A stretch of 53,743 nt of DNA from Limnohabitans sp. (GCA_017986605.1 JAGNVG010000001.1:3115-56857); one strand, 5' to 3'; counted from the stretch's first letter, positions 1 through 51,161 are shown. Notes: generated from the sequence alone by a model not told the origin. Numbers and translations: made by a program.

Positions 1-1532
1 ACTTGTGCGCTGCTGAGGGTGCTGATTTGAGCGGTGGTCAGCGCTTTGACCTGGGTGGTGGTCAGGGCCTGCAGGTCGTCGCTGGCCATGTTGTTGAGCT
101 GATCGGAGGTCAGGGCGGCCACTTGGGTGGTGGTCAACGCCTTGACCTGATCGCTCGTCAGACCGATGATTTGTTCGGTGCTCAACTTGGAGACCAATGC
201 GGTTGACAGCTTGCTCAGCTGTGCCGTGGTCAGTGCGGCAATTTCGGTTGTTTCTATCGCGACCAACTGGTCGCTGCCCAAAGCGTTGAGGGCATCGGTG
301 GAAATGGCCTTGATTTGTGTGCTGGACAGTGCTGCGATCGCATCGGTTGCGAGTTTGCCAGCCTGAGTGGCAGTCAAAGCGCCCACTTGCTGTGTCTGCA
401 GGAGTTGAATCTGGTCGCTGCTGAGGTTGCTGATCTGCGAGCTGGTGAGCGCTTTGACCTGTGTGGTGGTCAGAGCCTGCAGATCATCGCTGGCCAGTTT
501 GTTGATTTGTTCTGTTGTCAAGGCGACCACTTGCGAGGTCGTCAAAGCTTGCGCTTGTGCTGTACTCAATGTGTTGAGTTGATCGGTGCTCAAGCTGTTG
601 ATTTGATCGGAGGTCAAGGCCCTGATTTGCGCGGTGCTGAGTGCCTGCAGGTCATTGCTGGCCATGTTGTTCAGTTGATCGCTCGACAAGGCGGCTATTT
701 GGGCCGTTGACAGTGTCCTGATTTGTTCTGTGCTGAGCGCAACGATTTGGTCTGTGCTGAGTTTGCCCAGTTGTTGGCCAGATATTTTGCTGATCTGCGC
801 GGTGGTCAGTGCCGTCATGTTTTCGGTTTCAAAGACGGCCAGTTGGTCGGTGGTCAAGGCATTCAGTGCGACCGATGACAAGGCTTTGGCTTGTCCTGTG
901 GTCAAGGCCACCACTGCATCAGTTGACAATCCTGCGACTTGCAGATTGCTCAGGGCGGCCACATCGGTGGTTTCCAAGGTCGCCATTTGCAATGAGCTGA
1001 GGCTGTTGAGTTGTTCGGTGGTCAGGACCCGGATTTGCAATGTGGTCAGTGCTTTGAGGCTGCCTGTGGACAGACTAGCAAATTGCTCGGTATTGAGTCC
1101 TACCAGTTGACCCGTCGTCAAAGCTTGCACCTGCTGTGTGCTCAAGCCTGCAATGACGTCGGTTTTAAAGCTGTTGAGCTGTAAAGTACTCAGGCTGGCA
1201 ATGTCTTTCGTGTCGAAAAACTCCAAGTGCGAGGTGGTGAAGGTGCTCAGTTGCAAAGTGCTCAGACCTTGCACTTGCGGCGCCGTTAAAAGGGAGCTTT
1301 TGTTTCCATAGACCAGCAGGCCGTCAGAAAAGTTGCTGCTGTCGAATGCGCTGATTTGTCCGCTCGTCAACACCAGCATGTCACGCGATTCAATGGCCCC
1401 AATTTGCGCGCTGCTCAGAGCCGCAATTTGGGCAGTCGATAGCAACTTGACGTCGGCAGTGGACAGATCTCGGATCTGGTTGGTGGTCAGATTCTGGATC
1501 TGGGTGGGTGAAATCGAGCTGATCAACGACAT
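1..1532 (-). CDS. Large Ser/Thr/Gln-rich octapeptide (LTTxQ-type) repeat protein, 3'-truncated by the window edge
   Basis: Manual translation from ATG at 1532 (AAGGA RBS upstream): MSLISSISPTQIQNLTTNQIRDLSTADVKLLSTAQIAALSSAQ...QALTTTQVKALTTAQISTLSSAQ. Open for 510 codons to position 1; absent from the ORF track. Confidence 0.93.
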   Translation of the reverse strand, partial: MSLISSISPTQIQNLTTNQIRDLSTADVKLLSTAQIAALSSAQIGAIESRDMLVLTSGQISAFDSSNFSDGLLVYGNKSSLLTAPQVQGLSTLQLSTFTTSHLEFFDTKDIASLSTLQLNSFKTDVIAGLSTQQVQALTTGQLVGLNTEQFASLSTGSLKALTTLQIRVLTTEQLNSLSSLQMATLETTDVAALSNLQVAGLSTDAVVALTTGQAKALSSVALNALTTDQLAVFETENMTALTTAQISKISGQQLGKLSTDQIVALSTEQIRTLSTAQIAALSSDQLNNMASNDLQALSTAQIRALTSDQINSLSTDQLNTLSTAQAQALTTSQVVALTTEQINKLASDDLQALTTTQVKALTSSQISNLSSDQIQLLQTQQVGALTATQAGKLATDAIAALSSTQIKAISTDALNALGSDQLVAIETTEIAALTTAQLSKLSTALVSKLSTEQIIGLTSDQVKALTTTQVAALTSDQLNNMASDDLQALTTTQVKALTTAQISTLSSAQ

Positions 1533-1632
1533 GACGGTTCCTTTTTTGTACTGGCTCGATACCGAGCAAATACCACGATGACTGTTTCAAACCTGTGCTT
1601 TTTCTTTTTAGAAAAAACTTGGTGACCTCTGT

Positions 1633-1659
1633 GAATCGGTTCGGGATTCCATTACTTGA
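1633..1659 (-). promoter_or_regulatory. sigma28 (FliA)-type promoter of the repeat-protein gene
   Basis: Minus strand TCAAG-taatggaatcccga(14)-ACCGATTC; same spacing as the boxes before flgM, fliD, flaG and fliS. Confidence 0.75.
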
Positions 1660-1770
1660 GGTGTTTTGCCGTTTTTGTGATGGGCCCTGATGTGGCGGCA
1701 GAAGTTGGCCGCATAGACGGTTGATTGCCGTTTTCAGCTGTTTTTTTGCACGCAATCCTTGTTTTGCATT

Positions 1771-1786
1771 AGGTACACTTTTTGCT
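1771..1786 (+). promoter_or_regulatory. Possible sigma54 -24/-12 promoter of the OGT gene
   Basis: AGGTAC-ACTTT-TTGCT (GG-N10-GC); imperfect -24 element. Confidence 0.45.
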
Positions 1787-1871
1787 TTAACCCGTTGGAT
1801 TGACATGCGTCGGCTGTTTGAGGGCAACAGAGTCTTCGAATTCACTGACAAAATTTATAAGGTTTGGATTC

Positions 1872-4577
1872 ATGAACGCAGGAATTGACACGGCCGGTCT
1901 GGCCACTCCCCAGGACGCTCCGACATCGGAAGCTGCGGATCTGATTGCGGCGATGAGTCAGGGCAGGATGACCCAGTTGGACCTGATGGGGCATATCCAA
2001 CACTTGGAAAGCCTGGGCGAGCTGCGGGCGGCGGCCAATCTGTATGCGCTTTGGATCAACCATGCCAATGCCAAAGACAAGCACTTTGCCTTGTTCAATT
2101 ACGGCGGCATGCTGCAAAACCTGCAGCGCCCGCAAGAAGCCCTCGCTGCGTATGCGGCCTGCATTGCGCTGAAGGAGGACTTTCCTCAGGCCTATATCAA
2201 TAAGGGGTTGTTGTTTGAAAAGTTGGGCCAAGATGCCCATGCCCTGCAAACATGGTTGAGTTTGGTCAGCCGGCGCTATATGGCCAAACCGCCCACAGAC
2301 GAATTTTTGACCATGGCCCTCAATCACATGGGGCGTTTGCAGGAAAAACTCAAGAATTACGCGCAGGCCGAACAGGCACTGGAAGAAAGCTTGAGCATCA
2401 ATCCGGCGCAGCCCGGCGTTATTCAGCATTGGATGCACATTCGGCAAAAAGCTTGCCAATGGCCGATTTACAAAAGCTTGCCAGGCATTAGCCTGTCTGA
2501 GATGAAACGGTACACCTCACCGTTGGCGATGCTGGCGTTGACGGAAGATCCGGCCGAACAACTGCTCAACTCGCAGTCGTTTGTGGCGCGGACTTATTCC
2601 TTCCGTGAGGAGCGCTTGTCAGAAGGTCGTACTTACCAACACCAGCGCTTGCGAGTGGGCTATGTCTCTGGGGATTTCCGTGAGCACGCTGTGGGCTTTT
2701 TATTGCCTTCTATGCTGGATGGCCATGGTCAGTCCTATGAATTGTTTGCTTATGACTACACACCCGAAGAGCGCACACCTTTGCGCGAGCACCTGAAAGG
2801 GCAATTCGACCATTTCAGATCCATCAAGGATTTATCGGATCGACAGGCCGCCGAGCTCGTCTTGAGCGATGAAATTGACATCCTGATCGATTTGCATGGC
2901 CTGAGTTCAGGGGCGAGACCGGGCATTTTTGCTTTACACCCGGCCCCCAAGCAAGGCACCTATTTGGGTTTCATGGGCCCTACAGGCATGCCGTGGTTCG
3001 ATTTTGTGATCGCAGATCGACAAGTCTTGCCTGATGAGCTGGCCGTCTATTTCACCGAGAAGCCGCTCCATGTGGAGGGCAGTTATTTGCCCATGGTCTC
3101 TTATGCCGACCATGCGCCCGTGGTCACGCGTGAACAGTTGGGTTTGTCCTCTGAGGCTTTTGTGATGGGTGCCTTCGGCAACACTTACAAAATCACCCCG
3201 GAAATGTTCGCAACCTGGATGCGGCTCTTGAAGCGCATTCCCGATGCATTGCTGTGGCTGGTGGATGACAATGAGTCCAGCACCCAAAACCTCAAGGCCC
3301 AGGCCTTGGCGCATGGGGTGTCCTCTGACCGTCTGGTGTTTTCTTCCCGCACAGCGCACCCTGAGTTTTGTGCTCGCCTGAAGTTGGCTGATGTTTACTT
3401 GGACACCTACCCCTACAACTGTGGCTCGACCAGCAACGATGTGATCCATGCCGGGGTGCCGCTGGTGACTTTGTATGGCAAAACCATGGTTTCCCGGATG
3501 GGTTTGAGTTTGTTGTCTGCCTTGAATTCAGCCAGCAATGCCACGCGCAGTTATGCCGAATACGAAGACAAGGTGTTGGAGCTGTCGATTAAAAAGAAGG
3601 CGGGGAAATTGCCTGTGGCACTGCCGCGTGGTGAGCCTCTGCGCATTGGTCAGGCACTGGCCAACTGGAGTCAAGCGTCTGGCAGTGTTGATAGCGTCCC
3701 AGTGCCTGAGGTCACCATTCGTCCACGTGTGCAGTTGTTCCAGATTTGTTACACCGAAGAAACGCTGCAAAACGTTCCTGCCGATTTTGGTGTGCTCGAT
3801 AATTTAGCCAATGAGCGACCTGATTGGCGTGAGTTCTGGCCCATGCGCAATTACCTCATGAACCATGCGCTCGAGGACGATGTGTTTTATGGGTTCTTTT
3901 CCCCTCGCTTTTCCTACAAAACTGCGCTTGATTTCGAGAAAATAAGCGAGTTTGCCCTTCAGTACGGGTCAGACAACGATGTTTTGATTTTCAGTCCGTT
4001 CTGGGACCTCAACAGCTTTTTCTTGAATTCATTCGAGCAAGGTGAATTTTTCCACCCTGGCTTGATGGCTTGTTCGCAGCAGTTCATGCAGGCTGTGGGT
4101 CAGGATTTGCGTTTGTCAGAGTTGGTCATGCACGGTGAAAACACCGCATTTTGTAATTACTTCATTGCCAAAAAGAAATTTTGGCTGCATTGGCTGGAGT
4201 TGGGTGAAAAGCTCTTCCAAAGCGCTGAAGCCAAGGGGACGGTACTGGCCAATGCACTCAACCAAAGCACGATTTACAGTCACGATTTATTGCCACAAAA
4301 AATATTTGTTCAAGAGCGCTTGGTCAATATGCTGTTGGCGGGACCCCAATTCAAGTCGAAGTCTTGGAGCATGTTTGGGTTGCCTTGCTCCGTCACGCCA
4401 TTGAGCCAGTACCAATCGCAGGCTGCGGTGGCCAATGCATTGAAAATGGCTTATGCCAGGACGGGCGATAACTTGTACCTCAACGAATTCCACCAGTTGC
4501 GAGACAAGGTCTGGAAAGACAGTGGCATTGGCGAGCTGGCCAAGGCCCGAGATCGGGTTTTGCGTGGTGAAGCCTAA
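1872..4577 (+). CDS. TPR + GT41 (SPINDLY/O-GlcNAc transferase-like) glycosyltransferase with an extra C-terminal domain
   Basis: TPR helices; RLRVGYVSGDFREHAVG, DEIDILIDLHG and DVYLDTYPYNCGST motifs. Start placed at ATG 1872 (MNAGID). Confidence 0.9.
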   Translation: MNAGIDTAGLATPQDAPTSEAADLIAAMSQGRMTQLDLMGHIQHLESLGELRAAANLYALWINHANAKDKHFALFNYGGMLQNLQRPQEALAAYAACIALKEDFPQAYINKGLLFEKLGQDAHALQTWLSLVSRRYMAKPPTDEFLTMALNHMGRLQEKLKNYAQAEQALEESLSINPAQPGVIQHWMHIRQKACQWPIYKSLPGISLSEMKRYTSPLAMLALTEDPAEQLLNSQSFVARTYSFREERLSEGRTYQHQRLRVGYVSGDFREHAVGFLLPSMLDGHGQSYELFAYDYTPEERTPLREHLKGQFDHFRSIKDLSDRQAAELVLSDEIDILIDLHGLSSGARPGIFALHPAPKQGTYLGFMGPTGMPWFDFVIADRQVLPDELAVYFTEKPLHVEGSYLPMVSYADHAPVVTREQLGLSSEAFVMGAFGNTYKITPEMFATWMRLLKRIPDALLWLVDDNESSTQNLKAQALAHGVSSDRLVFSSRTAHPEFCARLKLADVYLDTYPYNCGSTSNDVIHAGVPLVTLYGKTMVSRMGLSLLSALNSASNATRSYAEYEDKVLELSIKKKAGKLPVALPRGEPLRIGQALANWSQASGSVDSVPVPEVTIRPRVQLFQICYTEETLQNVPADFGVLDNLANERPDWREFWPMRNYLMNHALEDDVFYGFFSPRFSYKTALDFEKISEFALQYGSDNDVLIFSPFWDLNSFFLNSFEQGEFFHPGLMACSQQFMQAVGQDLRLSELVMHGENTAFCNYFIAKKKFWLHWLELGEKLFQSAEAKGTVLANALNQSTIYSHDLLPQKIFVQERLVNMLLAGPQFKSKSWSMFGLPCSVTPLSQYQSQAAVANALKMAYARTGDNLYLNEFHQLRDKVWKDSGIGELAKARDRVLRGEA

Positions 4578-4621
4578 TTTTCAAATTGAAAATTGATTAA
4601 AAATATCTGAGAGGTAATGAG

Positions 4622-5359
4622 ATGATGAATTTGAGTTTTGAAGAGATTCACAAAGCCAAAACGGGTAAAGTGAGTGACAAATGGGAGTCGTACCTTCGTC
4701 ACTATGACAGTTTGTTCGCCATGTATCGTGATCAAAATATTTCACTTTTGGAAATCGGGATACAAAATGGTGGATCGTTGGATACTTATTGCGAATATTT
4801 TAAGAATGCCCAAATATTGATTGGATGTGATATCAATGTTAATTGCAGCAAACTGTATTATGAAGACGATAAAGTGAAGGTGGTGGTGGGTGATGCGAAC
4901 TCAGATGCCACGTTCAGAGAAATCGCGAACCTTCAAAAGGTGTTTGATATCGTGATTGACGATGGGTCGCATGTTTCCATGGATATCATCAACTCATTCA
5001 TTCGGTATTTTCCTCTGGTTTCACCTGGTGGTGTTTATGTCATTGAGGATACTCACACCCTGTACAGCCCAAATTTTGGGGGTGGTCTTTTGAATGAGTT
5101 CTCTGCCTACAACTTCTTCAAAAAACTCATCGATATCATCAATTTCCAATGGTGGCGTGATCATTTCAAGATGGAAGATTATCTGTCTACTTTCTTTTTG
5201 CGTGGGATTCCTGAGTTTATTCAGCAAGGTTGGGTCGAATCGATCGAATTCAAAAACTCGGTGATCACGGTGAAGAAGTCCACGCAACCAGGGCATGACA
5301 AATTGGGCCCCAGGATCATCCGAGGCACGCAGGCGTTGGTGGTGGATTTGCCAAGGTAA
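4622..5359 (+). CDS. Class I SAM-dependent methyltransferase (sugar O-methyltransferase-like)
   Basis: LLEIGIQNGGSL, DIVIDDGSH and GGVYVIED motifs; visibly AT-rich. Confidence 0.85.
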   Translation: MMNLSFEEIHKAKTGKVSDKWESYLRHYDSLFAMYRDQNISLLEIGIQNGGSLDTYCEYFKNAQILIGCDINVNCSKLYYEDDKVKVVVGDANSDATFREIANLQKVFDIVIDDGSHVSMDIINSFIRYFPLVSPGGVYVIEDTHTLYSPNFGGGLLNEFSAYNFFKKLIDIINFQWWRDHFKMEDYLSTFFLRGIPEFIQQGWVESIEFKNSVITVKKSTQPGHDKLGPRIIRGTQALVVDLPR

Positions 5360-5403
5360 GTTTCATGCATGGATGGCTGTGCGTGAGTCGTGCAATATCA
5401 ATT

Positions 5404-5440
5404 GGCGGTTTTTTGACGATCACTTGGCCTGCAAATTGCT
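5404..5440 (+). promoter_or_regulatory. sigma54 promoter of fliB with an adjacent FleQ-box-like site
   Basis: TGGCCT-GCAAA-TTGCT at 5425-5440; GGCGGTTTTTTGAC at 5404-5417. Confidence 0.6.
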
Positions 5441-5471
5441 TCCAACTCCTCATTGACTCCAGAGGTAGACC

Positions 5472-6710
5472 ATGAGCACTATTCACCTGACCAAGACCGT
5501 CCAATCGGTTCAGCCCCGTTATGTCGGTCGTTTTTCATGCACCGGCTCAGCCTGCGAGGACAGCTGCTGTTCGGGCTGGACGGTACACATCGATAAAAAA
5601 ACCTTCAATGCCTATCGGCAAGCCAAGCAGCCATTGCTCATGGAGCGTATGTCCACGCAGGTCAAAAGGATCAGGAGCTTGGCCAGTGAGACGAAGTACG
5701 CCCGCATTGAGATGCAGCCTGAAACCCTGGATTGTCCTTTTCTGGAAGAAAAGCTGTGCAGCGTGCAGCGTGAGTTGGGTGAAGACAAGTTGTCAGATAC
5801 CTGTGCCACTTATCCCCGTAAGAGCCGTGTATTGGGGGGGCAGCACCAGCAAGCTTTGACATTGTCCTGTCCAGAGGCTGCCAGATTGGCGCTTTTGGCT
5901 CCGGATGCTTTGGATTTTGTGGAAGTCTCAGGCAAGGTGCGTGTTGAATCCGTTGTTCAAATCCGCAGCAAGCAAGGCTTAACGCCAGAAACCATGGAGT
6001 CGGTCAGCCTTTTTTGCTTGAAACTGATGAAGGCCGACAGTTTGTCACTGTGGCAAAAATTGGCTGCGCTGGGGGTGTTCACCGAACAATTGACAGCGAT
6101 CCTGAAGCAGGGCGGTCACGCTGGCGTTTCGGCGTTGCTGAAAGACTTCGACACCATCGTTTCGTCTGGCGCCATCGTCGATGCCCTGTCGGCCATGTTG
6201 CCGGACTACGTGATTCAGGCCACCACCTTCTCCGGCTTGTGGCAACTGAAAAAAGGTCGAAGAAACTCAACGGTTCAAGCGTCAGTTCAGACCCTGGTGG
6301 CCAGAGGTTTGGGCGCAGACCCTGTGACAAATCTGGTGACGCAGCAGCAACTGATTGACAACTACAGAGCCGGTGTACAGCGCTTGCCAGAGGCATTAAA
6401 TGACGCCCCGTTCATGTTGGAAAACTTTCTCTTGAATGAAATGTTCAGCGAAGGATTTCCATTTTCCGAGGCCAGCCCTTACGATCATTTCCTGAAGCTG
6501 GTGACGCAATTTGGCTTGCTTCGCTTCATGTTGGCGGTCCAATGCAATGAGCCCGAGCGTCTTCCCGACCTCGAGCAAATGGTTCGCACCGTTCAGGTGT
6601 TCAGCCGGAAATACCAACACGACGCAGACTTTGCCAAGCGCGTGAATGGCGCCTTGAAGAATGCCGGTTGGGATTCATTGGACAAAATCTATCGGTTTCT
6701 GAGGACCTGA
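5472..6710 (+). CDS. fliB: Flagellin lysine-N-methylase
   Basis: FSCTGSACEDSCCSGW, CPFL...LCSVQ, CATYPR and LSCPEAARL Cys motifs; adjacent to the flagellins. Confidence 0.9.
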   Translation: MSTIHLTKTVQSVQPRYVGRFSCTGSACEDSCCSGWTVHIDKKTFNAYRQAKQPLLMERMSTQVKRIRSLASETKYARIEMQPETLDCPFLEEKLCSVQRELGEDKLSDTCATYPRKSRVLGGQHQQALTLSCPEAARLALLAPDALDFVEVSGKVRVESVVQIRSKQGLTPETMESVSLFCLKLMKADSLSLWQKLAALGVFTEQLTAILKQGGHAGVSALLKDFDTIVSSGAIVDALSAMLPDYVIQATTFSGLWQLKKGRRNSTVQASVQTLVARGLGADPVTNLVTQQQLIDNYRAGVQRLPEALNDAPFMLENFLLNEMFSEGFPFSEASPYDHFLKLVTQFGLLRFMLAVQCNEPERLPDLEQMVRTVQVFSRKYQHDADFAKRVNGALKNAGWDSLDKIYRFLRT

Positions 6711-6748
6711 TGGCTCAGAAAAAACGGCTGGTGCCCATGCAACGACAC

Positions 6749-6773
6749 CACGCCGAAAGGGCATTTCGGCGTG
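6749..6773. terminator. Hairpin between convergent fliB and flagellin 2
   Basis: CACGCCGAAA-gggca-TTTCGGCGTG inverted repeat. Confidence 0.5.
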
Positions 6774-6774
6774 T

Positions 6775-7611
6775 TCAGCTGAGCAAGGCCAGCACGTAAT
6801 AAGGCTGTTGGTTGGCCTGCGACAACATCGCTGTTCCCGCTTCGTTCAAAATCATGCTTCGAGCCAACTCTGCGGTGGCTTGGGCGTAATCGGTGTCCAT
6901 GATCCGGCTGCGCGAGGCACTGGTGTGCATTGACACATTGCTGGCATTGTCGGCTGCGTAGGTGAGGCGGCTCATCATGGCACCCCATTGACTGCGCTCG
7001 CTATCGATCTGCACCATGGCCTTGTCGATCAGGTCAATGGATGCCGTGGCTTTGCTTCGTGTATCAATGGCCGCTGAATTGCCCAATGCAGCTGCTACGT
7101 CGTTGCTGTTCAGTTCCGCTAGGGGCAGGGCGATGGAGTCGCTGCTGCTGGCACCCACATGAAACTTCACCACGCCCGCCGTTCCAGCTTCACCTTTGAG
7201 AAGCTTCATGCCGTTCCAGCTGGTGTTGGTCACTGTATTGGCCGCTTGTTCCTGGAGCTGTAAAAACTCTGCTTGCAGTGCATCACGTTCGTCTTGTCCG
7301 TTGGTGTCGTTGGCGGATTGAATGGCCAATTCGCGCATGCGAATCAACATGTCGGTCATCTCGCTGGTTGCACCATCGGCTGTTTGCAGCATCGAAATAC
7401 CATCGTTGGCATTGCGCACAGCCATGTCCAGACTGCGAATTTGAGCCGTCATCTTGTTGCCAATAGCCAGACCCGCCGCATCGTCGGAGACAGAGTTGAT
7501 GCGCTGGCCTGTCGCCAGTTGAGCCATTGACTTGTCCATGGACCGCTGATTGACGACCAGCGCTTGCTGGACGGCAAGGGACTTGACGTTGGTGTTGACA
7601 AAGGCGCTCAT
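6775..7611 (-). CDS. fliC: Flagellin 2 (278 aa)
   Basis: RINSVSDDAAGLAI and SRSRIMDTDYA flagellin termini. Confidence 0.93.
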   Translation of the reverse strand: MSAFVNTNVKSLAVQQALVVNQRSMDKSMAQLATGQRINSVSDDAAGLAIGNKMTAQIRSLDMAVRNANDGISMLQTADGATSEMTDMLIRMRELAIQSANDTNGQDERDALQAEFLQLQEQAANTVTNTSWNGMKLLKGEAGTAGVVKFHVGASSSDSIALPLAELNSNDVAAALGNSAAIDTRSKATASIDLIDKAMVQIDSERSQWGAMMSRLTYAADNASNVSMHTSASRSRIMDTDYAQATAELARSMILNEAGTAMLSQANQQPYYVLALLS

Positions 7612-7716
7612 GGGCAGGCTCCTGGTAAAGGCGGGGTGGCCTTGTGGCGCGTGGGATGAAGCTTATTTTTCATGGTGGCGTGAACACAAGGTGATCTTGC
7701 TTGAGTTGCAGCTTCA

Positions 7717-7747
7717 CGACAAAAAGCCCGAATGGGCTTTTTGGTCG
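7717..7747. terminator. Bidirectional intrinsic terminator downstream of flagellin 1
   Basis: AAAAAGCCC-gaat-GGGCTTTTT. Confidence 0.8.
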
Positions 7748-7768
7748 TTGGGCTCTGCAACGCGTCCA

Positions 7769-8617
7769 TTAACGCAGCAAAGACATCACAGACTGCGGCG
7801 CTTGGTTGGCTTGTGCCAACATGGCTGTCGCAGCTTGCGAGATGATTTGTGTGCGGGCCAATTCTGTTGTCGTCGCGGCGTAATCGGTGTCTTGAATTCG
7901 ACTGCGTGAGGCCGCGGTGTTTTGGGACACGTTCGCCAAGTTGTCAGCAGCGTAGTTCAAGCGGTTGATCGTTGCACCGTAGGTCGAGCGCTCGGCATCA
8001 ACCAATTTCAATGCGCCGTCGATGGAGTCAATGGCTTTGGTGGCATCGGCTTGGGTCTTGACATCCAGGGCATCGATTTTGAGCGACTTGCTGTCCATGC
8101 CTTGTGTGCCGAAATCAATCTCGATCGCTGCAGAAGAGCCAGTGTTGGCGCTGACGTGCAATTGAGCGACGCCTTTTGTGCCCACTTCGCTGTCTGCGGT
8201 GGCTTTGAACACTTGCATGCCGTTCCACTGCGTGTTGTCAGCGATGCGTGTGATTTCAGATGACAGCGCGTCGACTTCGGACTGCAAAGCCGTACGGTCG
8301 TCGGTTGTGTTGGTGTCGGTGGCAGCCTGCACAGACAATTCACGCATGCGTTGCAGCATGTTGGTGATTTCTTTGGTGGCACCGTCGGCTGTCTGAATCA
8401 ACGAAATACCGTCGTTGGCGTTGCGAACCGCTTGATCGAGGCCGCGAACCTGGGCCGTCATTTTGTTGCTGATGGCCAGGCCTGCAGCGTCGTCGGCAGC
8501 GCCGTTGATGCGGCTGCCGGTGGACAGACGCTCCATGGCTTTGTTCAGGTTGCGGTTGTTCACGGTCAAAGCGTTTTGGGCGATGGTGGACTTGATGTTG
8601 GTGTTGATAACGGACAT
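7769..8617 (-). CDS. fliC: Flagellin 1 (282 aa, probable major flagellin)
   Basis: MSVINTNI...RINGAADDAAGLAI...SRIQDTDYA...QSVMSLLR; strong AAGGAG RBS. Confidence 0.97.
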   Translation of the reverse strand: MSVINTNIKSTIAQNALTVNNRNLNKAMERLSTGSRINGAADDAAGLAISNKMTAQVRGLDQAVRNANDGISLIQTADGATKEITNMLQRMRELSVQAATDTNTTDDRTALQSEVDALSSEITRIADNTQWNGMQVFKATADSEVGTKGVAQLHVSANTGSSAAIEIDFGTQGMDSKSLKIDALDVKTQADATKAIDSIDGALKLVDAERSTYGATINRLNYAADNLANVSQNTAASRSRIQDTDYAATTTELARTQIISQAATAMLAQANQAPQSVMSLLR

Positions 8618-8724
8618 GGTCTTACTCCTTGGCGAGATTTATTTCAAAAGGTTGGCAGGAACCCGAATGGAGTAGGACCTGCCTGTTTTCACAGAAAATC
8701 TGATTTGAATCTCTGTTACTGAAT

Positions 8725-8751
8725 GATTCGGAAGTTGTCGAAAAAGCTTTA
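8725..8751 (-). promoter_or_regulatory. sigma28 promoter of fliC1
   Basis: TAAAG-N14-TCCGAATC. Confidence 0.75.
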
Positions 8752-8777
8752 GGGCTTGATGCGTTTTTTTTAGGTCT

Positions 8778-9149
8778 TCAAGATTTTTCGTCCTTGAACA
8801 GGCCTTTCATGTTTTCCAGGTTGTTGGCAACGCGCAAAGCCACTTCACTGGGGATCTGGCGGACCACTTCACCGTTTTCACTGTTCTTCACCGTGACGAC
8901 AATTTTGTTGGATACGTCGTCCACGCTGAAGCTCAGATCACGCTTGCTGTGCGTCATTTTTTTGTTCAGTTGTTCCGTGGCTTCTTCCAAAGCCCGACGG
9001 GCTTCCCGAGGGTCGGGTTTGTTTTCGACGGCGGGCTTGACGTCGACAGGTGGCTGTGGGCGGGCTTGTCCTTCGACCGAGCGCGCAGCGGGAATGGCCA
9101 CTGGTGTGGCTGCTGCGCGGGCTGCGCTGGTTTGGATATCGTTGCTCAT
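8778..9149 (-). CDS. flaG: Flagellar protein FlaG
   Basis: LSFSVD...VVRQIPSE motif; lies between fliD and fliC. Confidence 0.9.
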   Translation of the reverse strand: MSNDIQTSAARAAATPVAIPAARSVEGQARPQPPVDVKPAVENKPDPREARRALEEATEQLNKKMTHSKRDLSFSVDDVSNKIVVTVKNSENGEVVRQIPSEVALRVANNLENMKGLFKDEKS

Positions 9150-9236
9150 GGTGTTGTCCTTGATCTCATCCCCGCTGACAGAACTGGCGTAAGGAGAACC
9201 GTCTGGCGGCTCACCAAATGGGGATGTCGTGATGGA

Positions 9237-9263
9237 GATTCGGACGCTTAGAGCGAAACTTGA
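9237..9263 (-). promoter_or_regulatory. sigma28 promoter of flaG
   Basis: TCAAG-N14-TCCGAATC. Confidence 0.7.
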
Positions 9264-9339
9264 GCCGTTTTTTGCAAAAACGGCAAAAAATGGCCGAAAA
9301 CTGAATTGAGCCCGCTCAAGCAGGCTGCCGAGGGCGTTT

Positions 9340-10740
9340 TCAGCCCGTGTAAGCTTTCATCATGCCTTCAAAGGTGCCTTTGAGGCCCTCGCGCATGCTG
9401 TTGCTGTTGCCCACGATGCTTTCCATGATGCTGAATTGGTTGGTGTAGCGGGTCATGAGCTTTTCCATGCGCTCTTCCAACACGGTCAATTCTTTTTTGT
9501 ATTTCGCAATTTGCGTGGTGGCATTTTGACTTTGGGTGTCGATCAGGCCCGTCGACAACAGCATTTTTTCGAGTTTGTTGATGGCTCCGCCCGCCAAACC
9601 GGCTGGCGCGGTGCTGTAAACGCTTTTGTTGTTGGTGCCTGCGCTGAACATGGTGGCCACTTCGCCAAAGTTGTTTTGCAAGGCTTTGTCCAGTTTCCCC
9701 TCATCCAGTGTGAGTTTGCCGTAGCGGTCGATACTCAGACCGACATCGCGACCTGCTTTGATGGTGCTGCCGGGTGTGGTGGAGTTGGCTGTGACCATTT
9801 CCCGCACCTGGTTGCGGACACTTTGGAGCAGGTTGTCGCCCGCTAAGGCGCCGCCAAATTCTTCCACTTCGCTCGCACTGTCACCCAAAATGTTCAGGGT
9901 TTCCGCAAAGTCGTTGTAGGCGGTGACCAAGCCTTGGATATTGCCCTTGATGCTGGTGGTGTCGCGGTTCAGGTCCAGTCGGGCGGCACCTGTGCTGGTG
10001 GCATACAGGTCCAGGGTCACCCCATCAATGACGTCACTGATGGTGTTGCTGCTGCGTGTCACAGGCAAACCGTTGACCTTGAAGCTGGCATCTGTGGCGG
10101 TTTGCAATGGGGTTGCAAACGAAAGGCCTGACACGGCCGCGCCATGGCCGTCATCGCTGGCCATGCTGAAACTTTGGGCTGCCCCCGTCTCACCGGTCAG
10201 CACCACATTGAAGCCGTTACCGGTGTTGATGAGTTGAGCGCTCACGCCCAATTTGGCGCCGTTGATGGCGCTGACCAAGCCCGCTGGTGTGGGTGTGGGG
10301 ACGTTGATCGGGTCTTTGACTACCCCGCCCACGGTGAGATTCAGACTGAACGGCGTCCCGCCATTGAGTGCTGTGTCCCTCGCGGCGAAGGTGTTGCTGG
10401 CAGTGCGCTGGGCCAGCGCAGTTTGCAGCACTTCAATGCTGTAACTGCCTGCTTCTGCTGAACTGCCGGCCGTGACCCCAAATGCGCTGGGTTGGGTGTT
10501 GCTGGGCTGCAGGGAGCTGAAATCACTGGCGTCGTTGAGTTTGCCGAAGGCTGTTTTGAGGGTTGAAAGGGCAAACTTGATGGCGCTGTAACCCGAAATG
10601 CGGGCTTCAGTTTGGGTGATTTTGGCGTCGATTCGCTCTTTTTTGGGCGTTTTTTCCGCGTCCACCAGACTTTGGGCCAGCGCCTTGACATCAATACCGG
10701 AGCCGGCACCGAGGGTGTTGACAATGCTACTGGTGGCCAT
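9340..10740 (-). CDS. fliD: Filament cap protein
   Basis: LGAGSGID, RSSNTISDVIDGVTL and FSIMES motifs. Confidence 0.95.
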   Translation of the reverse strand: MATSSIVNTLGAGSGIDVKALAQSLVDAEKTPKKERIDAKITQTEARISGYSAIKFALSTLKTAFGKLNDASDFSSLQPSNTQPSAFGVTAGSSAEAGSYSIEVLQTALAQRTASNTFAARDTALNGGTPFSLNLTVGGVVKDPINVPTPTPAGLVSAINGAKLGVSAQLINTGNGFNVVLTGETGAAQSFSMASDDGHGAAVSGLSFATPLQTATDASFKVNGLPVTRSSNTISDVIDGVTLDLYATSTGAARLDLNRDTTSIKGNIQGLVTAYNDFAETLNILGDSASEVEEFGGALAGDNLLQSVRNQVREMVTANSTTPGSTIKAGRDVGLSIDRYGKLTLDEGKLDKALQNNFGEVATMFSAGTNNKSVYSTAPAGLAGGAINKLEKMLLSTGLIDTQSQNATTQIAKYKKELTVLEERMEKLMTRYTNQFSIMESIVGNSNSMREGLKGTFEGMMKAYTG

Positions 10741-10783
10741 GGGGTGGATTCGCTGGTGGGGTGTTCGAAAGGGTTCAGGTCAT

Positions 10784-10810
10784 GTGTCGGCACGAAGCAC
10801 TGAAACTTGA
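10784..10810 (-). promoter_or_regulatory. sigma28 promoter of fliD
   Basis: TCAAG-N14-GCCGACAC. Confidence 0.75.
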
Positions 10811-10825
10811 ATTGATGCGCTGTCT

Positions 10826-11740
10826 TCAGCCTCGGATGTAGTCAAAAAGTGACAGTCCTGAAATTTTGGAGAAGCTGCCCATGGCGGCTTCCAGTGCCAT
10901 CATTTCTTTGTTCACCCGGGTAACGGCCTCAGCGTAGTCCAGGTCCTCAATTTCAGACAGCGTTGACTTCATGCGCAATTGGGTTTCTTCGAGGACGTCT
11001 TTTTGAGTCGAAATCACTTGCTGGTCGGAGCCATTTTTAGCCTGTGACAGAGTCAGGGTGTTGTGCATTTGGGTCACGTCAGCGATGCCCCTTTGGATGC
11101 CCGTGGTCTGGTTCTTATCGGTGGCGTCAATCATCTGATCGAGCGCATCAAAAAAACCAACGGCTTCTCCGTTGCCGCGCACCACCCGGCTGAACACATC
11201 GGTGCCGGCTCGACTGAATTGCACGGTGCGCTCCACCCCGGCTGGAATGCTGGTTTGGGTTTGGTCGCCTTGGTATTGCACTTGACCCGTCCCATTTTCT
11301 GCAAAGGCGGGTGTGTTGACCCGTGTGCCAGAGAACAGGTAGTTGCCGCTGTCGTCTTGTGTGTTGCCCAGGCTGAGCAACTGGTCCCGCAAGGCTTTCA
11401 TCTCAACACCGATGGCTTTGCGATCATCTGGGCCCAGTGTGTCGTTGGCGGCTTGAATCGCCAATTCTTTGAGACGGATCAGCAGGTCATTGGAGGCGCT
11501 GAGTGCATTTTCTTCTGCACCAAAACGCCGAATGGCCACATCCAGTGTGCGCATATGACTGTCTTGGCGTTGCACTTCACCCTTCAGTCGCTGGATGGCA
11601 GCGGCTTGGTCGGGTGCAGCGCTGGGCGAGAGGATTTGTTTGCCTACGGCCAGTTGCGCCTGCGTGGTGGCCAGTTTGTTTTGGGTGCTGCTCATGCGAT
11701 CGGTCGCACGGTCAAACAGGAAAGAGGTGGAGATTTTCAT
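10826..11740 (-). CDS. flgL: Hook-associated protein 3
   Basis: MKIST, GNYLFSG and IEDLDYAEA motifs. Confidence 0.95.
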   Translation of the reverse strand: MKISTSFLFDRATDRMSSTQNKLATTQAQLAVGKQILSPSAAPDQAAAIQRLKGEVQRQDSHMRTLDVAIRRFGAEENALSASNDLLIRLKELAIQAANDTLGPDDRKAIGVEMKALRDQLLSLGNTQDDSGNYLFSGTRVNTPAFAENGTGQVQYQGDQTQTSIPAGVERTVQFSRAGTDVFSRVVRGNGEAVGFFDALDQMIDATDKNQTTGIQRGIADVTQMHNTLTLSQAKNGSDQQVISTQKDVLEETQLRMKSTLSEIEDLDYAEAVTRVNKEMMALEAAMGSFSKISGLSLFDYIRG

Positions 11741-11757
11741 GAGAACGCTTTCGAGGT

Positions 11758-24546: not shown

Positions 24547-24573
24547 TCAAGTTCTAAAATCTCATGCCGATTC
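24547..24573 (+). promoter_or_regulatory. sigma28 promoter of flgMN
   Basis: TCAAG-N14-GCCGATTC. Confidence 0.85.
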
Positions 24574-44734: not shown

Positions 44735-46852
44735 ATGACCACATTGACCCTGTCAGCGATCCGACAGAACTTCTCCCGCTTCGATTTGGCGGGTTTGGGT
44801 TTGCCCGCTTTGGTCTTGCTGATCATGGCGATGTTGGTGGTGCCACTGCCAGCTTTGTTGCTGGATATTCTTTTCACGTTCAACATCATGATTGGCTTGG
44901 TGGTCATCATGATTGCCATTGGTACACGCAAGCCTTTGGAGTTTTCATCCTTTCCCTCGGTTTTGCTGTTTGCGACCATGTTGCGCCTTGCATTGAACGT
45001 GGCCTCTACCCGTGTGGTGTTGGTCAAGGGGCACGAAGGTCCCGAAGCCGCGGGTAAAGTGATTGCCGCTTTCGGTGAGTTCGTCATCGGCGGCAACTAT
45101 GTCGTCGGTTTCATCATCTTCGTGATTTTGATGATCGTGAACTTTTTTGTGGTGACCAAAGGTGCGGGTCGCGTCTCTGAGGTCAATGCACGATTCACAC
45201 TGGACGCCATGCCTGGCAAGCAAATGTCCATTGATGCTGACTTGAATGCCGGCGTGATCGATCAGGAAACCGCCAAAAAACGCCGTGAAGAGTTGGCGCA
45301 GGAATCCGACTTCTTCGGCTCCATGGACGGTGCTTCCAAGTTCGTAAGTGGCGACGCCATGGCCGGTTTGTTGATTTTGATTATCAACATTGTGGGTGGC
45401 TTGGCCATTGGCATCGGTCAGCACAACTTGTCCGTCGGCGATGCGAGCCGTATTTATGTCTTGTTGACAATTGGTGACGGCCTGGTCGCTCAGATTCCTT
45501 CTTTGTTCTTGTCGCTGGCCACCGCCATCATCGTGACCCGGGTGACCACATCCGAGTCGATGACCGAGCAGGCGACAACCCAATTCTCGAACGTGCCGGC
45601 TTTGTTCATTTCGGCCGCCATTTTGACCGTTCTGGGCCTGGTGCCTGGCATGCCACATCTGGTCTTTTTGACATTGGCGGGAGCCACCGCTGGCATTGCC
45701 TTCATGGTCATGCGCAAACAAATGCAGCTGGAAGAAACCGCTGCCGCACCTGCTGCACCCACCTCCGATGCCCCCAAAGAGCTGGATTGGGACGATGTCG
45801 AGCAAGTTGATTTGATCGGTTTGGAAATTGGTTATGGCCTGATCCCCTTGGTCAACGTTGAATCGGGTGGTCAGTTGATGACACGCGTGAAAGGCGTGCG
45901 TAAAAAGCTGTCAGCTGAATTGGGCTTTTTGGTGCAGCCAGTGCGCATCCGTGACGCGCTCAATTTGGAGCCCGACGCTTATCACATTGTTTTGAATGGC
46001 GTGGTGCGTGGTCGTGGCGAAGTCAAGGTGGGGCGTGAGTTGGCGATCAACCCCGGCAAGGTTTACGGCAAAGTCGAGGGCCAGCCCACCAAGGAGCCTG
46101 CTTTCGGCCTCGAAGCTGTTTGGATCGAACCGGCTTGGCGCGATCAAGCCCGGGCTTTGGGTTACACCGTGGTGGACCCGAGCACAGCCATTGCGACCCA
46201 CATGAACAAGGTCTTGCGCGACAACTCCTCTGAGCTGATGAGCCACGACGAGGCACAAAAATTGTTGGACAAATTGGCCGCCAAATCCCCCAAGTTGGTG
46301 GAGGAGCTGGTGCCTGGCAAGTTGTCTTTGGGGGTGGTGACCCGGACCTTGCAAAACTTACTTCAAGAGTCTGTGCCCATCCGTGACATGCGCACTGTTG
46401 TCGAAGCCTTGACCGAAGTCTGCGGTCGCACGCAAGACCCGGATCAACTGACCCAACTGATCCGCCCCAAGCTGGGACGCATGATCGTCCAAAGCCTGAC
46501 TGAAAACCGCGACACCTTGTCGGTCTTGACCTTGGACCCACAGCTGGAGCAATTGCTGCACAACGTACTCCAGCAAAACACCAACTCAGCCGGTATGGTG
46601 CTGGAGCCCAGTTTGGCTGAAAGCCTGTTTACTGCCTTGCGTGAAAGCGCCCGCACCACGGAAGAGCAGGGCCTGCCTGCCGTGCTGGTGGTCTCGCCCG
46701 CGATCCGGCCTTGGATGTCGCGTGCCGTTCGCTACCGTGTGAATGACCTGACAGTGCTGTCCTACAGCGAAATACCCGATGACCAGGCTGTGAAGGTGAT
46801 CAACACCGTGCAAGCCGACCCACGCAACAACCCTTCTGTTAGCAAAGCCTGA
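44735..46852 (+). CDS. flhA: Export apparatus protein
   Basis: RFTLDAMPGKQMSIDADL and GSMDGASKF motifs. Confidence 0.98.
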   Translation: MTTLTLSAIRQNFSRFDLAGLGLPALVLLIMAMLVVPLPALLLDILFTFNIMIGLVVIMIAIGTRKPLEFSSFPSVLLFATMLRLALNVASTRVVLVKGHEGPEAAGKVIAAFGEFVIGGNYVVGFIIFVILMIVNFFVVTKGAGRVSEVNARFTLDAMPGKQMSIDADLNAGVIDQETAKKRREELAQESDFFGSMDGASKFVSGDAMAGLLILIINIVGGLAIGIGQHNLSVGDASRIYVLLTIGDGLVAQIPSLFLSLATAIIVTRVTTSESMTEQATTQFSNVPALFISAAILTVLGLVPGMPHLVFLTLAGATAGIAFMVMRKQMQLEETAAAPAAPTSDAPKELDWDDVEQVDLIGLEIGYGLIPLVNVESGGQLMTRVKGVRKKLSAELGFLVQPVRIRDALNLEPDAYHIVLNGVVRGRGEVKVGRELAINPGKVYGKVEGQPTKEPAFGLEAVWIEPAWRDQARALGYTVVDPSTAIATHMNKVLRDNSSELMSHDEAQKLLDKLAAKSPKLVEELVPGKLSLGVVTRTLQNLLQESVPIRDMRTVVEALTEVCGRTQDPDQLTQLIRPKLGRMIVQSLTENRDTLSVLTLDPQLEQLLHNVLQQNTNSAGMVLEPSLAESLFTALRESARTTEEQGLPAVLVVSPAIRPWMSRAVRYRVNDLTVLSYSEIPDDQAVKVINTVQADPRNNPSVSKA

Positions 46853-49152: not shown

Positions 49153-49863
49153 ATGAGCAGCAATGTTTCCTTGTACGAAGAAGTCGGTAACCGACACGAA
49201 TCGTTGATCCTGACGCACATGCCCATGGTCAAACGTGTGGCGGTGCACCTGAAAGCGCGACTTCCGCCTTTCATGGAGCTGGACGAATTGGTTCAGGTGG
49301 GCATGGTCGGCTTGATCGAAGCCGCACGGTCCTTTGACCCTACCAAAGGGTTTGAGTTTGAGCATTTCGCACTCAGTCGGGTGCGCGGCGCCATCTTGGA
49401 CGAAGTCCGCAGGCAGTCTTTCTTGCCTCGCTCAGCAGTCGCATTCAACAAAAACGAGAACGAAGCGGTGCACGTGTTGGCCGCAGAGTTGGGTCGTGCA
49501 CCGACCCAGGTCGAGTTGGCCCAGTTCATGGGCAAGGAAATCGAAGAGTTCCACAAAGAGCGGGGGCAGGCCAAACGCTTTGAAACCTTTTCGATGGAGG
49601 TCGTCAATGACGAGGTCATGAGCATGCCTGGTGACAGTGCGATGCAGCCCGAAGTCATGGTGGAGGAAGCGGAGTTCATGGAGGCCGTGGTGCAAGCCAT
49701 CGACCAATTACCCGAGCGCGAACGCATGGTCATGTCTCTTTATTACGTTGAAGAGCTCAATCTCAAGGAGATTGGCGAGGTTTTGGGTGTCAGTGAATCC
49801 AGGGTGAGTCAAATTCTTTCTGCAGTGGTGAAGAAATTGCGGCAAAATCTGCAAATGTCTTGA
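49153..49863 (+). CDS. fliA: RNA polymerase sigma28
   Basis: RVRGAILDEVR and LNLKEIGEVLGVSESRVSQ motifs. Confidence 0.96.
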   Translation: MSSNVSLYEEVGNRHESLILTHMPMVKRVAVHLKARLPPFMELDELVQVGMVGLIEAARSFDPTKGFEFEHFALSRVRGAILDEVRRQSFLPRSAVAFNKNENEAVHVLAAELGRAPTQVELAQFMGKEIEEFHKERGQAKRFETFSMEVVNDEVMSMPGDSAMQPEVMVEEAEFMEAVVQAIDQLPERERMVMSLYYVEELNLKEIGEVLGVSESRVSQILSAVVKKLRQNLQMS

Positions 49864-51134: not shown

Positions 51135-51161
51135 TCAAGTTTCCCGCACTACCGCCGATTC
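51135..51161 (+). promoter_or_regulatory. sigma28 promoter of fliS
   Basis: TCAAG-N14-GCCGATTC. Confidence 0.85.

What the first reader, a model, noticed from the sequence alone, without database searches (positions are those of the whole stretch)
1..4577. Candidate new system: sigma28-controlled giant octapeptide-repeat protein with a divergent O-glycosyltransferase, inside a flagellar island
Seen: a minus-strand ORF missing from the track (ATG 1532, >510 aa, no stop in the window), built mostly of L-[TS]-[TS]-x-Q-[IVL]-x-x octads, rich in Ser/Thr, with no Sec/Tat signal. Its promoter (1633-1659) has the same TCAAG-N14-xCCGA form as fliD, flaG, flgM and fliS, so it appears to be a late flagellar gene. 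A TPR-GT41 enzyme is encoded divergently. Known: GT41/OGT enzymes glycosylate Ser/Thr in the cytoplasm, and some late flagellar-regulon proteins without signal peptides leave through the flagellar T3SS (e.g. Campylobacter FspA). Inference: this is a flagellum-exported, glycosylated solenoid or fibre (filament coat, adhesin or anti-grazer/phage shield), not an unrelated neighbour.
Basis: partly seen in the sequence, partly recalled or inferred. Interest (0 to 1): 0.88.

Follow-up and report, generated by a model that had tools for sequence, protein, structure and literature searches.

The report
Flagellar-regulon giant glycoprotein rod cassette
Two giant genes made only of an 8-residue repeat sit inside this freshwater bacterium's flagellum gene cluster, behind a late-flagellar-type promoter and beside a sugar-transferase gene; they likely encode sugar-coated rods that are likely exported through the flagellum, an undescribed partner system of bacterial motility.

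Summary
Observation confirmed and extended. The ORF is real. It belongs to the catalogued but unstudied Pfam ALTTAQ repeat family, has no C-terminal domain, and is followed by a second copy. Both lie inside one flagellar cluster of a Limnohabitans-like genome. The predicted fold is a rod of tiny helices (alpha-helical screw).

The sigma28-type box is well supported: 7 sites against 0.57 by chance, and it stands before 18 of 25 metagenomic repeat genes against 4 of 63 neighbouring transferase genes. Close GT41 relatives travel with the repeat gene (21 of 25 long loci). The surplus Ser/Thr position is specific to GT41-linked repeats.

Tail-less cassettes sit in flagellar clusters in several separate lineages, and one complete genome with them has no type I secretion adaptor. 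Against this, other members, some tail-less, sit beside type I secretion genes, and this genome has three such systems elsewhere. Export and glycosylation are inferred, not shown.

No paper was found in the searched library. This scan noted the family, and once the flagellar link, on other DNA. Verdict: a new variant of the glycosylated giant surface protein theme.

The parts
1..1532 (-). ALTTAQ-repeat protein P1, N-terminal 510 aa. It continues beyond the window; about 1,000 aa are sequenced around a scaffold gap and there is no C-terminal domain. A tandem paralogue P2 lies just outside the window.
   Evidence: AF2 model
1538..1543 (-). Shine-Dalgarno-like AAGGAA before ATG 1532
   Evidence: sequence
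1633..1659 (-). sigma28 (FliA)-type promoter, TCAAG-N14-ACCGATTC, about 100 nt before the start
   Evidence: conserved with a diverged spacer in relatives
1872..4577 (+). TPR-GT41 glycosyltransferase (901 aa), divergent. His272 and Lys440 align with His218 and Lys388 of XcOGT. The extra C-terminal ~300 aa are unassigned.
   Evidence: C-terminal part no hit
4622..5359 (+). Methyltransferase-24-like gene (below Pfam cut-off), a likely glycan-tailoring neighbour
5472..6710 (+). FliB flagellin lysine-N-methylase
   Evidence: NF038110, E 4e-71
6775..8617 (-). Two flagellin genes (278 and 282 aa), the rival GT41 substrates; fliC1 has a TAAAG-type sigma28 box
9240..9263 (-). sigma28-type box before flaG (reference site)
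10787..10810 (-). sigma28-type box before fliD (reference site)
24547..24570 (+). sigma28-type box before flgM (reference site)
44735..46852 (+). [quoted passage not shown]
   Evidence: (FHIPEP)
49153..49863 (+). fliA-like sigma factor (proposed activator)
   Evidence: sigma70 regions 2-4, after flhF/fleN-like genes
51135..51158 (+). sigma28-type box before fliS (reference site)

Best explanation
The locus is a cassette of two repeat-only ALTTAQ genes and a divergent GT41 gene inside the flagellar cluster; the repeat proteins are likely made with the flagellins under FliA, likely O-glycosylated by the GT41 in the cytoplasm, and likely exported through the flagellar type III system to form predicted helical-screw rods on or around the swimming cell. 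Shown: gene layout, promoter motif, family membership and co-occurrence. Predicted: the fold. Inferred: FliA dependence (about 0.9), GT41 acting on the repeats (about 0.7) and the flagellar route (about 0.5). The likely acceptor is the second Thr/Ser of L-T-T, the first helix residue; the first Thr/Ser is a structural helix cap. The final role is the weakest step. The most likely one is a glycan-dense, mucin-like brush that shields or lubricates the filament or cell surface during the motile phase.
For: Promoter. PWM score >=10 bits before 18 of 25 metagenomic repeat genes against 4 of 63 GT41 genes of the same locus set; at >=14 bits, 10 of 25 against 0 of 63. Pairing: among 39 genomes (this one, 36 congeners, 2 reached through loci) the GT41 orthologue (>=58% identity) is in 7, all with an adjacent repeat gene, while 25 of 36 congeners have flagellins. 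Of 80 metagenome loci fetched by GT41 similarity, 60 are >=50% identical. Of these, 33 show a repeat gene, 27 flagellar genes and 0 type I secretion genes; among the 25 of >=10 kb the counts are 21, 18 and 0. Of 28 visible C-termini, 27 end within 57 aa of the last repeat. Acceptor site: Ser/Thr at the first helix position is 95% here, median 72% and 80% in the two GT41-linked sets, but 15-24% (Pro/Ala instead) in calpain-, FHA- and G8-fused ALTTAQ stalks, whose helix-cap Ser/Thr stays at 66-91%. Route: repeat-only cassettes occupy at least five different slots of flagellar clusters. Their GT41s do not form one clade (p-AU 6.5e-64; 5 changes between flagellar and type-I-linked states). Complete genome G059 has two repeat-only genes, GT41 and one FlhA, but no type I HlyD over the cut-off (best 52.7 against 208.65 bits), no VipB and no VirB4. 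P0001 fuses ALTTAQ repeats to hook FlgE and FlgD domains. Many family members carry extracellular domains. Fold: AF2 pLDDT 92.7 with one short helix per 8 aa; best PDB sequence match is HeliScrew4, 9ZEM, E 4.6e-14.
Against: Repeat-only proteins also sit beside HlyB/HlyD in Cereibacter sphaeroides plasmid A, Niveispirillum, Pseudoroseomonas and G352, so type I systems probably can export tail-less forms. This genome has three type I adaptors over the cut-off, and 13 of 15 flagellar-class genomes tested have at least one. Sigma28 boxes also precede type-I-linked members (G136, G174, a Pseudomonas plasmid), so the promoter does not identify the route. N-termini of the two classes look alike. The paralogue P2 of this genome has no strong box of its own (9.8 bits, within P1). 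GT41 genes stand beside flagellins with no repeat gene in view in G015 and G035 (about 30% identical, outside the clade) and in L162 and L166 (59% over the core, about 9-10 kb seen downstream). G031 and G719 have the repeat gene but no GT41 orthologue was found (incomplete assemblies). The GT41 query alignment was built mostly (9 of 10) from repeat-linked enzymes, and kin are not independent.
Confidence: 0.42

Rival explanations
1. It is the same FliA-controlled, GT41-glycosylated rod, but exported by a type I secretion system encoded elsewhere, using a cryptic C-terminal signal. The flagellar location reflects only shared regulation and co-transfer.
For: Tailed members end in an RTX-protein-like 'PLVLDLDG' domain (type recalled) and lie beside HlyB/HlyD. 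Tail-less members lie beside type I genes in four lineages. In G136 and G313 the GT41 lies beside a more distant HlyB, so no single HlyB clade is required. This genome has three type I systems.
Against: 0 of 60 close GT41 loci show type I genes. Complete G059 has no type I adaptor over the cut-off. This genome's type I loci have their own adjacent RTX-type substrates and no GT41. The HlyB clade linked to ALTTAQ genes in G010, G144, G332, G174 and G207 (67-74% identical to the G010 query) was not found in any flagellar-class genome among the 28 searched.
Confidence: 0.27
2. The GT41 is a flagellin glycosyltransferase (as proposed for Burkholderia FlmQ). The repeat genes are passengers in the variable glycosylation slot and are not its substrate.
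For: The cassette shares a slot that holds glycosylation genes in congeners without the repeat gene (G015, G018, G035). FliB and a methyltransferase are adjacent. L162, L166 and L169 have close GT41s beside a flagellin with no repeat gene in view. PMC4462625 passages call flmQ a predicted flagellin glycosyltransferase; that it is GT41-like is recalled, not tested.
Against: GT41 accompanies ALTTAQ genes also where no flagellar gene is near. 23 of 24 rows in the window enzyme's clade are repeat-linked, though rows were mostly chosen that way. The flagellin-adjacent G015/G035 enzymes fall outside that clade. The surplus Ser/Thr tracks GT41 linkage. The enzyme could still modify both substrates.
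Confidence: 0.14
3. The repeat-only proteins are not exported. They lost the tail and the transporter, and act in the cytoplasm or at the pole as a scaffold, a spacer or a sink that tunes glycosylation or export.
For: No signal peptide, no tail, and in G059 no type I system. No direct evidence of export.
Against: The family is otherwise fused to extracellular domains. Length varies from 708 to more than 2,400 aa among relatives, as for surface stalks. The genes are kept and duplicated in a small genome.
Confidence: 0.12

Closest known systems
Pfam PF20080 ALTTAQ repeat family (automatic names seen: 'heme utilization protein', 'ICE nucleation protein', hypothetical)
   Same: Sequence member, 335.9 bits against a cut-off of 26.4; same octad.
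   Different: No function was found for it in the searched papers. This subclass is repeat-only, GT41-paired, has a sigma28-type promoter and lies inside flagellar clusters.
Alpha-helical screw: designed HeliScrew4 (PDB 9ZEM) and the phage CDHS-1 receptor-binding protein (7QLR)
   Same: 8-residue helix repeat; phmmer E 4.6e-14 to 9ZEM; 7QLR at Z 7.0, rmsd 9.7, 254 aligned. The preprint's passages describe Ser/Thr/Asp/Asn helix caps and name 7QLR as the only natural example.
   Different: Natural and more than 120 repeats long; Thr/Ser replaces the Pro that the designs favour at the first helix position. The structural-search scores are middling and do not prove the fold class.
HMW1/HMW1C of Haemophilus (giant adhesin with its own cytoplasmic GT41-type enzyme)
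   Same: Large exoprotein with a neighbouring, dedicated cytoplasmic glycosyltransferase (PMC3012730, search listing and start of abstract only).
   Different: HMW1 uses two-partner secretion and is N-glycosylated at Asn. This protein has no visible signal peptide, has a helical fold, and its enzyme is XcOGT/OGT-like.
Campylobacter FspA/Fed/Cia proteins exported by the flagellar type III system
   Same: Non-flagellar proteins co-expressed with flagellin and secreted through the flagellum (PMC8306008, passages).
   Different: Those are unrelated host-interaction proteins, small by recall. Here a 70-250 kDa repeat protein with its own glycosyltransferase would be the cargo; export is untested.
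Flagellin glycosylation islands (Burkholderia FlmQ; Synechococcus Ogt acting on pilin)
   Same: Glycosyltransferase and methyltransferase genes beside flagellins, or acting on an appendage subunit (PMC4462625 passages; 10.1101/2021.07.06.449578 start of abstract).
   Different: This GT41 clade follows the repeat gene, also away from flagellin genes.

Membership tests
Pfam PF20080 ALTTAQ repeat | HMM score above the gathering cut-off, multiple tandem hits | tested here: met
   335.9 bits against 26.4, 17 stretches
Alpha-helical screw fold | One short helix per 8 residues, hydrophobic core, Ser/Thr helix caps | tested here: met
   AF2 pLDDT 92.7, helices every 8 aa; octad logo; 9ZEM match. Prediction only.
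Alpha-helical screw fold | Close structural superposition on a solved screw | tested here: inconclusive
   7QLR Z 7.0, rmsd 9.7; mesothelin and armadillo rows score similarly
GT41 / OGT-like glycosyltransferases | TPRs plus GT41 catalytic domain with conserved His and Lys | tested here: met
   PF13844 E 1.9e-59; XcOGT E 6.9e-56; His272 and Lys440 aligned and invariant in 10 sequences. Their catalytic roles are recalled.
GT41 / OGT-like glycosyltransferases | Transfers a sugar to Ser/Thr of this substrate; sugar identity | not testable with these tools
   Indirect only
FliA (sigma28) regulon | sigma28 consensus at a conserved distance, shared with flgM/fliD/flaG/fliS | tested here: met
FliA (sigma28) regulon | Transcription depends on fliA | not testable with these tools
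   Only assembled RNA contigs were laid
Flagellar type III export substrates | No Sec/Tat signal, N-terminal export signal, FlhA in the genome | tested here: inconclusive
   No signal by eye; FlhA in 30 of 33 repeat-bearing genomes; N-termini do not differ from type-I-linked members
Flagellar type III export substrates | Secretion lost in flhA mutant | not testable with these tools
   none
Type I (RTX-type) secretion substrates | RTX repeats or C-terminal tail domain and linked HlyB/HlyD genes | tested here: not met
   Protein ends 5 aa after the last repeat motif in the orthologue and equally short here; no type I genes in the cluster. Tail-less members with linked type I genes exist elsewhere, so the route is not excluded.
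Ice nucleation / heme utilization proteins (database labels) | Pfam ice-nucleation or heme-binding domains, beta-helix | tested here: not met
   No such Pfam or NCBIfam hit; the model is all-helical

The most novel reading that the evidence does not exclude
Several proteobacterial lineages independently moved a glycosylated helical-screw giant from type I secretion to the flagellar export gate, dropping its tail and transporter. The 70-250 kDa rods are then laid along or around the flagellar filament as a protein-glycan coat, a new class of flagellar accessory structure that shields the filament from phages or grazers.
Probability: 0.2. Interest if true: 0.88.

Novelty: new variant of a known kind. 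Interest (0 to 1): 0.66.

Why it matters
If right, it adds a large glycoprotein to the late flagellar programme of common freshwater bacteria. It gives a candidate native substrate for a bacterial OGT-like enzyme. It supplies a natural, very long example of a fold that a 2025 preprint found almost absent from the PDB. It would also show repeated switching of one protein family between type I and flagellar secretion. A cultured close relative (Limnohabitans sp. T6-20) and laboratory Cereibacter sphaeroides 2.4.1 (type-I-linked form) make it testable.

Tried and rejected
Literature: 'ALTTAQ' found 0 papers. The accession PF20080 and repeat motifs gave 7 listings whose titles are unrelated, so I took them as string coincidences and did not open them. 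Searches on GT41 + flagell, ice nucleation + CtrA, Limnohabitans + flagell + glycosyl and heme utilization protein + FliA showed nothing on this system in their listings. Most subscription papers and all supplements went unseen; regulon tables in supplements may list these genes under wrong names.

Caulobacter: the control genome has a PF20080 hit. Papers name two 'ice nucleation' genes (CCNA_02815, CCNA_01542; passages), but I could not tie either to the hit.

Searches with no result: no phage match; the Atlas gave no result. The GT41 C-terminal domain has no family hit, no likeness to the DUF4422 neighbour, and its single-sequence model was useless (pLDDT 34.7).

Promoters in Alphaproteobacteria: no sigma28 match in the 8 plasmid loci and only weak CtrA-like matches in 2, so FliA control is not family-wide.

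RNA: contigs from 4 RNA libraries (3 studies) cover the repeat gene and GT41. Contigs cannot show strand, start or level, and DNA carry-over is not excluded, so this was not used as evidence.

Rejected readings: the 'absence of the linked HlyB clade' test is weakened because G136 and G313 pair GT41 with another HlyB. A beta-solenoid was rejected. L090, a 3-kb contig in a Bacteroidota bin without FlhA, resembles the Limnohabitans genes (59-77%) and was treated as probably mis-binned; this was not tested. No complex prediction was run.
Full report
Observation. The window is contig C161:3115-56857 of an 81%-complete, 2.33-Mb genome. The minus-strand ORF from ATG 1532 is open to the window edge. 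Beyond it the contig has a 100-N gap, then about 490 more repeat residues and a stop with no other domain. A second repeat gene follows and runs onto contig C96 through a 275-nt overlap. The closest named orthologue is in Limnohabitans sp. T6-20 (90%), where the two proteins are 1,476 and 708 aa and the gene order is the same: flagellins, fliB, methyltransferase, GT41, then divergently P1, P2, two small TPR genes, a third flagellin and a FleQ-like gene; C96 continues with fliF-J. The repeat is Pfam PF20080 ALTTAQ, consensus A-L-[TS]-[TS]-x-Q-[IVL]-x.

Fold. AlphaFold2 on a 30-sequence alignment gave pLDDT 92.7 with a five- to six-residue helix every eight residues. The best PDB sequence match is the designed HeliScrew4. 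A preprint (10.64898/2025.12.04.691947; passages read) defines this alpha-helical screw, gives Ser/Thr as helix caps and Pro at the first helix position, and names 7QLR as the only natural example. Structure searches gave only middling matches (7QLR Z 7.0, rmsd 9.7; mesothelin; armadillo repeats). I took the term 'helical screw' from earlier scan notes and then tested it.

Promoter. The motif occurs 7 times in the window against 0.57 expected, each before a plausible late gene. A matrix trained on seven other window sites scores the repeat gene's box at 16.8 bits. It finds boxes 60-105 nt before the start in most congeners and in G261 and G245. It finds weaker variants in Nitrosomonas (8-10 bits) and in G059, whose box resembles its own flagellin promoter by eye (41 starts tested). 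In metagenome loci 18 of 25 repeat genes against 4 of 63 GT41 genes pass 10 bits. Boxes also precede several type-I-linked members, and none was found in 8 alphaproteobacterial plasmid loci. FliA control is therefore likely here but does not name the export route.

Distribution. PF20080 matched 14 of 61 relatives, 13 of 301 genomes of the order and 18 of 401 of the phylum (I fetched 2 of the 14 new ones), and 61 plasmid records (10 read). Two main layouts emerged. In the flagellar class the protein is repeat-only and lies among flagellar genes with an adjacent or nearby GT41. It sits in different slots: between flagellins (this genome), between fliD and flaG (G020), after fliJ (G261, G031), between flhB and fliK/fliI (Nitrosomonas, pieced from separate contigs), between fliA and flgM (G245), beside export genes (Rhodovastum) and beside flagellins (Pseudorhizobium). 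In the type I class the gene lies beside HlyB/HlyD, usually with a tail of about 290 aa, and again with a GT41. Four type-I-linked cases are tail-less. Four loci had neither neighbour type in view (Rhizobium CCGE532, Shinella, Thioclava, G709). Low-density repeats fused into other giant proteins (G007, G013, G018, G023, G025) had no GT41 or flagellar genes in the fetched flanks.

Which substrate for the GT41. The enzyme is XcOGT/OGT-like with the conserved His and Lys. Among 39 genomes the orthologue is found in 7, all beside a repeat gene, though 25 of 36 congeners have flagellins; two incomplete genomes have the repeat gene without a found orthologue. Fetching 80 of 563 confirmed metagenome loci by GT41 similarity, 21 of 25 long loci with >=50% identity hold a repeat gene, 18 hold flagellar genes and none holds type I genes; four lack a visible repeat gene, two of them beside a flagellin. 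The query was built mostly from repeat-linked enzymes and the loci are kin, so these counts overstate independence. Congeners G015 and G035 have a distant GT41 beside flagellins without a repeat gene, outside the window enzyme's clade. The first helix position is Ser/Thr in 95% of octads here and in a median 72-80% of GT41-linked proteins, but 15-24% in calpain-, FHA- and G8-fused ALTTAQ stalks, which keep the cap Ser/Thr. The genomic context of those fused proteins is unknown. The 18 loci without a GT41 in the fetched flank were mixed (median 80%); three of those genomes proved to have a close GT41 beside the repeat genes or a HlyB. This fits the repeat protein being the acceptor but does not show it.

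Which route. For the flagellum: GT41s of the flagellar class are not one clade (38 rows; p-AU 6.5e-64 with the long-branch G245 row left out of the tested group; 5 changes), with Nitrosomonas and Rhodovastum nested among type-I-linked enzymes. This fits repeated moves into flagellar clusters; the direction is not proven without a root. Complete G059 has the cassette inside a 70-kb flagellar and glycosylation island with no type I adaptor, VipB or VirB4 found and one FlhA. One database protein fuses ALTTAQ repeats to FlgE and FlgD domains (single contig). Export of non-flagellar proteins by the flagellum is documented in Campylobacter (PMC8306008 passages). Against: tail-less type-I-linked members exist; 13 of 15 flagellar-class genomes tested, this one included, have some type I adaptor, though here beside their own RTX-type genes; and N-termini do not separate the classes. 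I put the flagellar route at about even odds.

Verdict. The feature is real, the family is catalogued, and the system (FliA-type promoter, dedicated GT41, flagellar residence, possible switch of secretion route) was not found in the searched library (listings only unless stated). This scan had noted the family in 7 other genomes, once with the flagellar promoter and once arguing against a flagellar role. It is a new variant of the 'giant surface protein plus its own glycosyltransferase' kind.

Noticed in passing
P0001 (2,492 aa, database protein): ALTTAQ repeats (about 1-880) fused to a hook FlgE middle region (31-37% to the window's FlgE 130-300 and 486-678) and a FlgD Ig domain; known from one 8-kb contig.
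   Followed up: partly
L139:5529-14452 (G026): In a congener without ALTTAQ genes, the slot after fliC holds a different 2,069-aa protein with DLNxDG-type repeats, no Pfam hit, no visible signal peptide and a sigma28-like box, followed by an M10 peptidase. Possibly a slot for other late-flagellar giant cargo.
   Followed up: partly
L002:14115-14591 and L002:15055-15567 (contig C96): Two small TPR_14 proteins (158 and 170 aa); homologues sit directly beside flagellin genes in many related clusters, with or without ALTTAQ genes. Possibly flagellin chaperones or modifiers.
   Followed up: no
window 3660-4577: The GT41 has an extra C-terminal domain of about 300 aa with no family hit; it is missing in three orthologues of about 596 aa.
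   Followed up: partly
window 9340-51617 and contig C96: The flagellar cluster is of the polar type: FleQ-like sigma54 activators, sigma54-like boxes before flgB and flhA, flhF/fleN-like genes, flaG and an LPP20 lipoprotein. FlgE (799 aa) and FlgK (831 aa) are long. GC is 44-56% over window 1-12000 against 58.5% for the genome.
   Followed up: no
L027:3-6768 (G010): A congener has motB, hlyB, hlyD and a type-I-class ALTTAQ gene in one strand, linking even the type I form to a motility gene.
   Followed up: no
L123:15001-22292 and L128:8997-14084: In two plasmid records the repeat gene is broken into several frames, probably by sequencing or assembly errors in the repeats.
   Followed up: no
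phylum search, family f97 (G352-G456): One family holds many long, divergent ALTTAQ-like ORFs per genome (12 genomes with matches).
   Followed up: no
window 22450-23598: 382-aa ORF between flgB and flgA with no Pfam or NCBIfam hit; by eye LysM-like at the front and lytic-transglycosylase-like behind (recalled motifs, untested).
   Followed up: no
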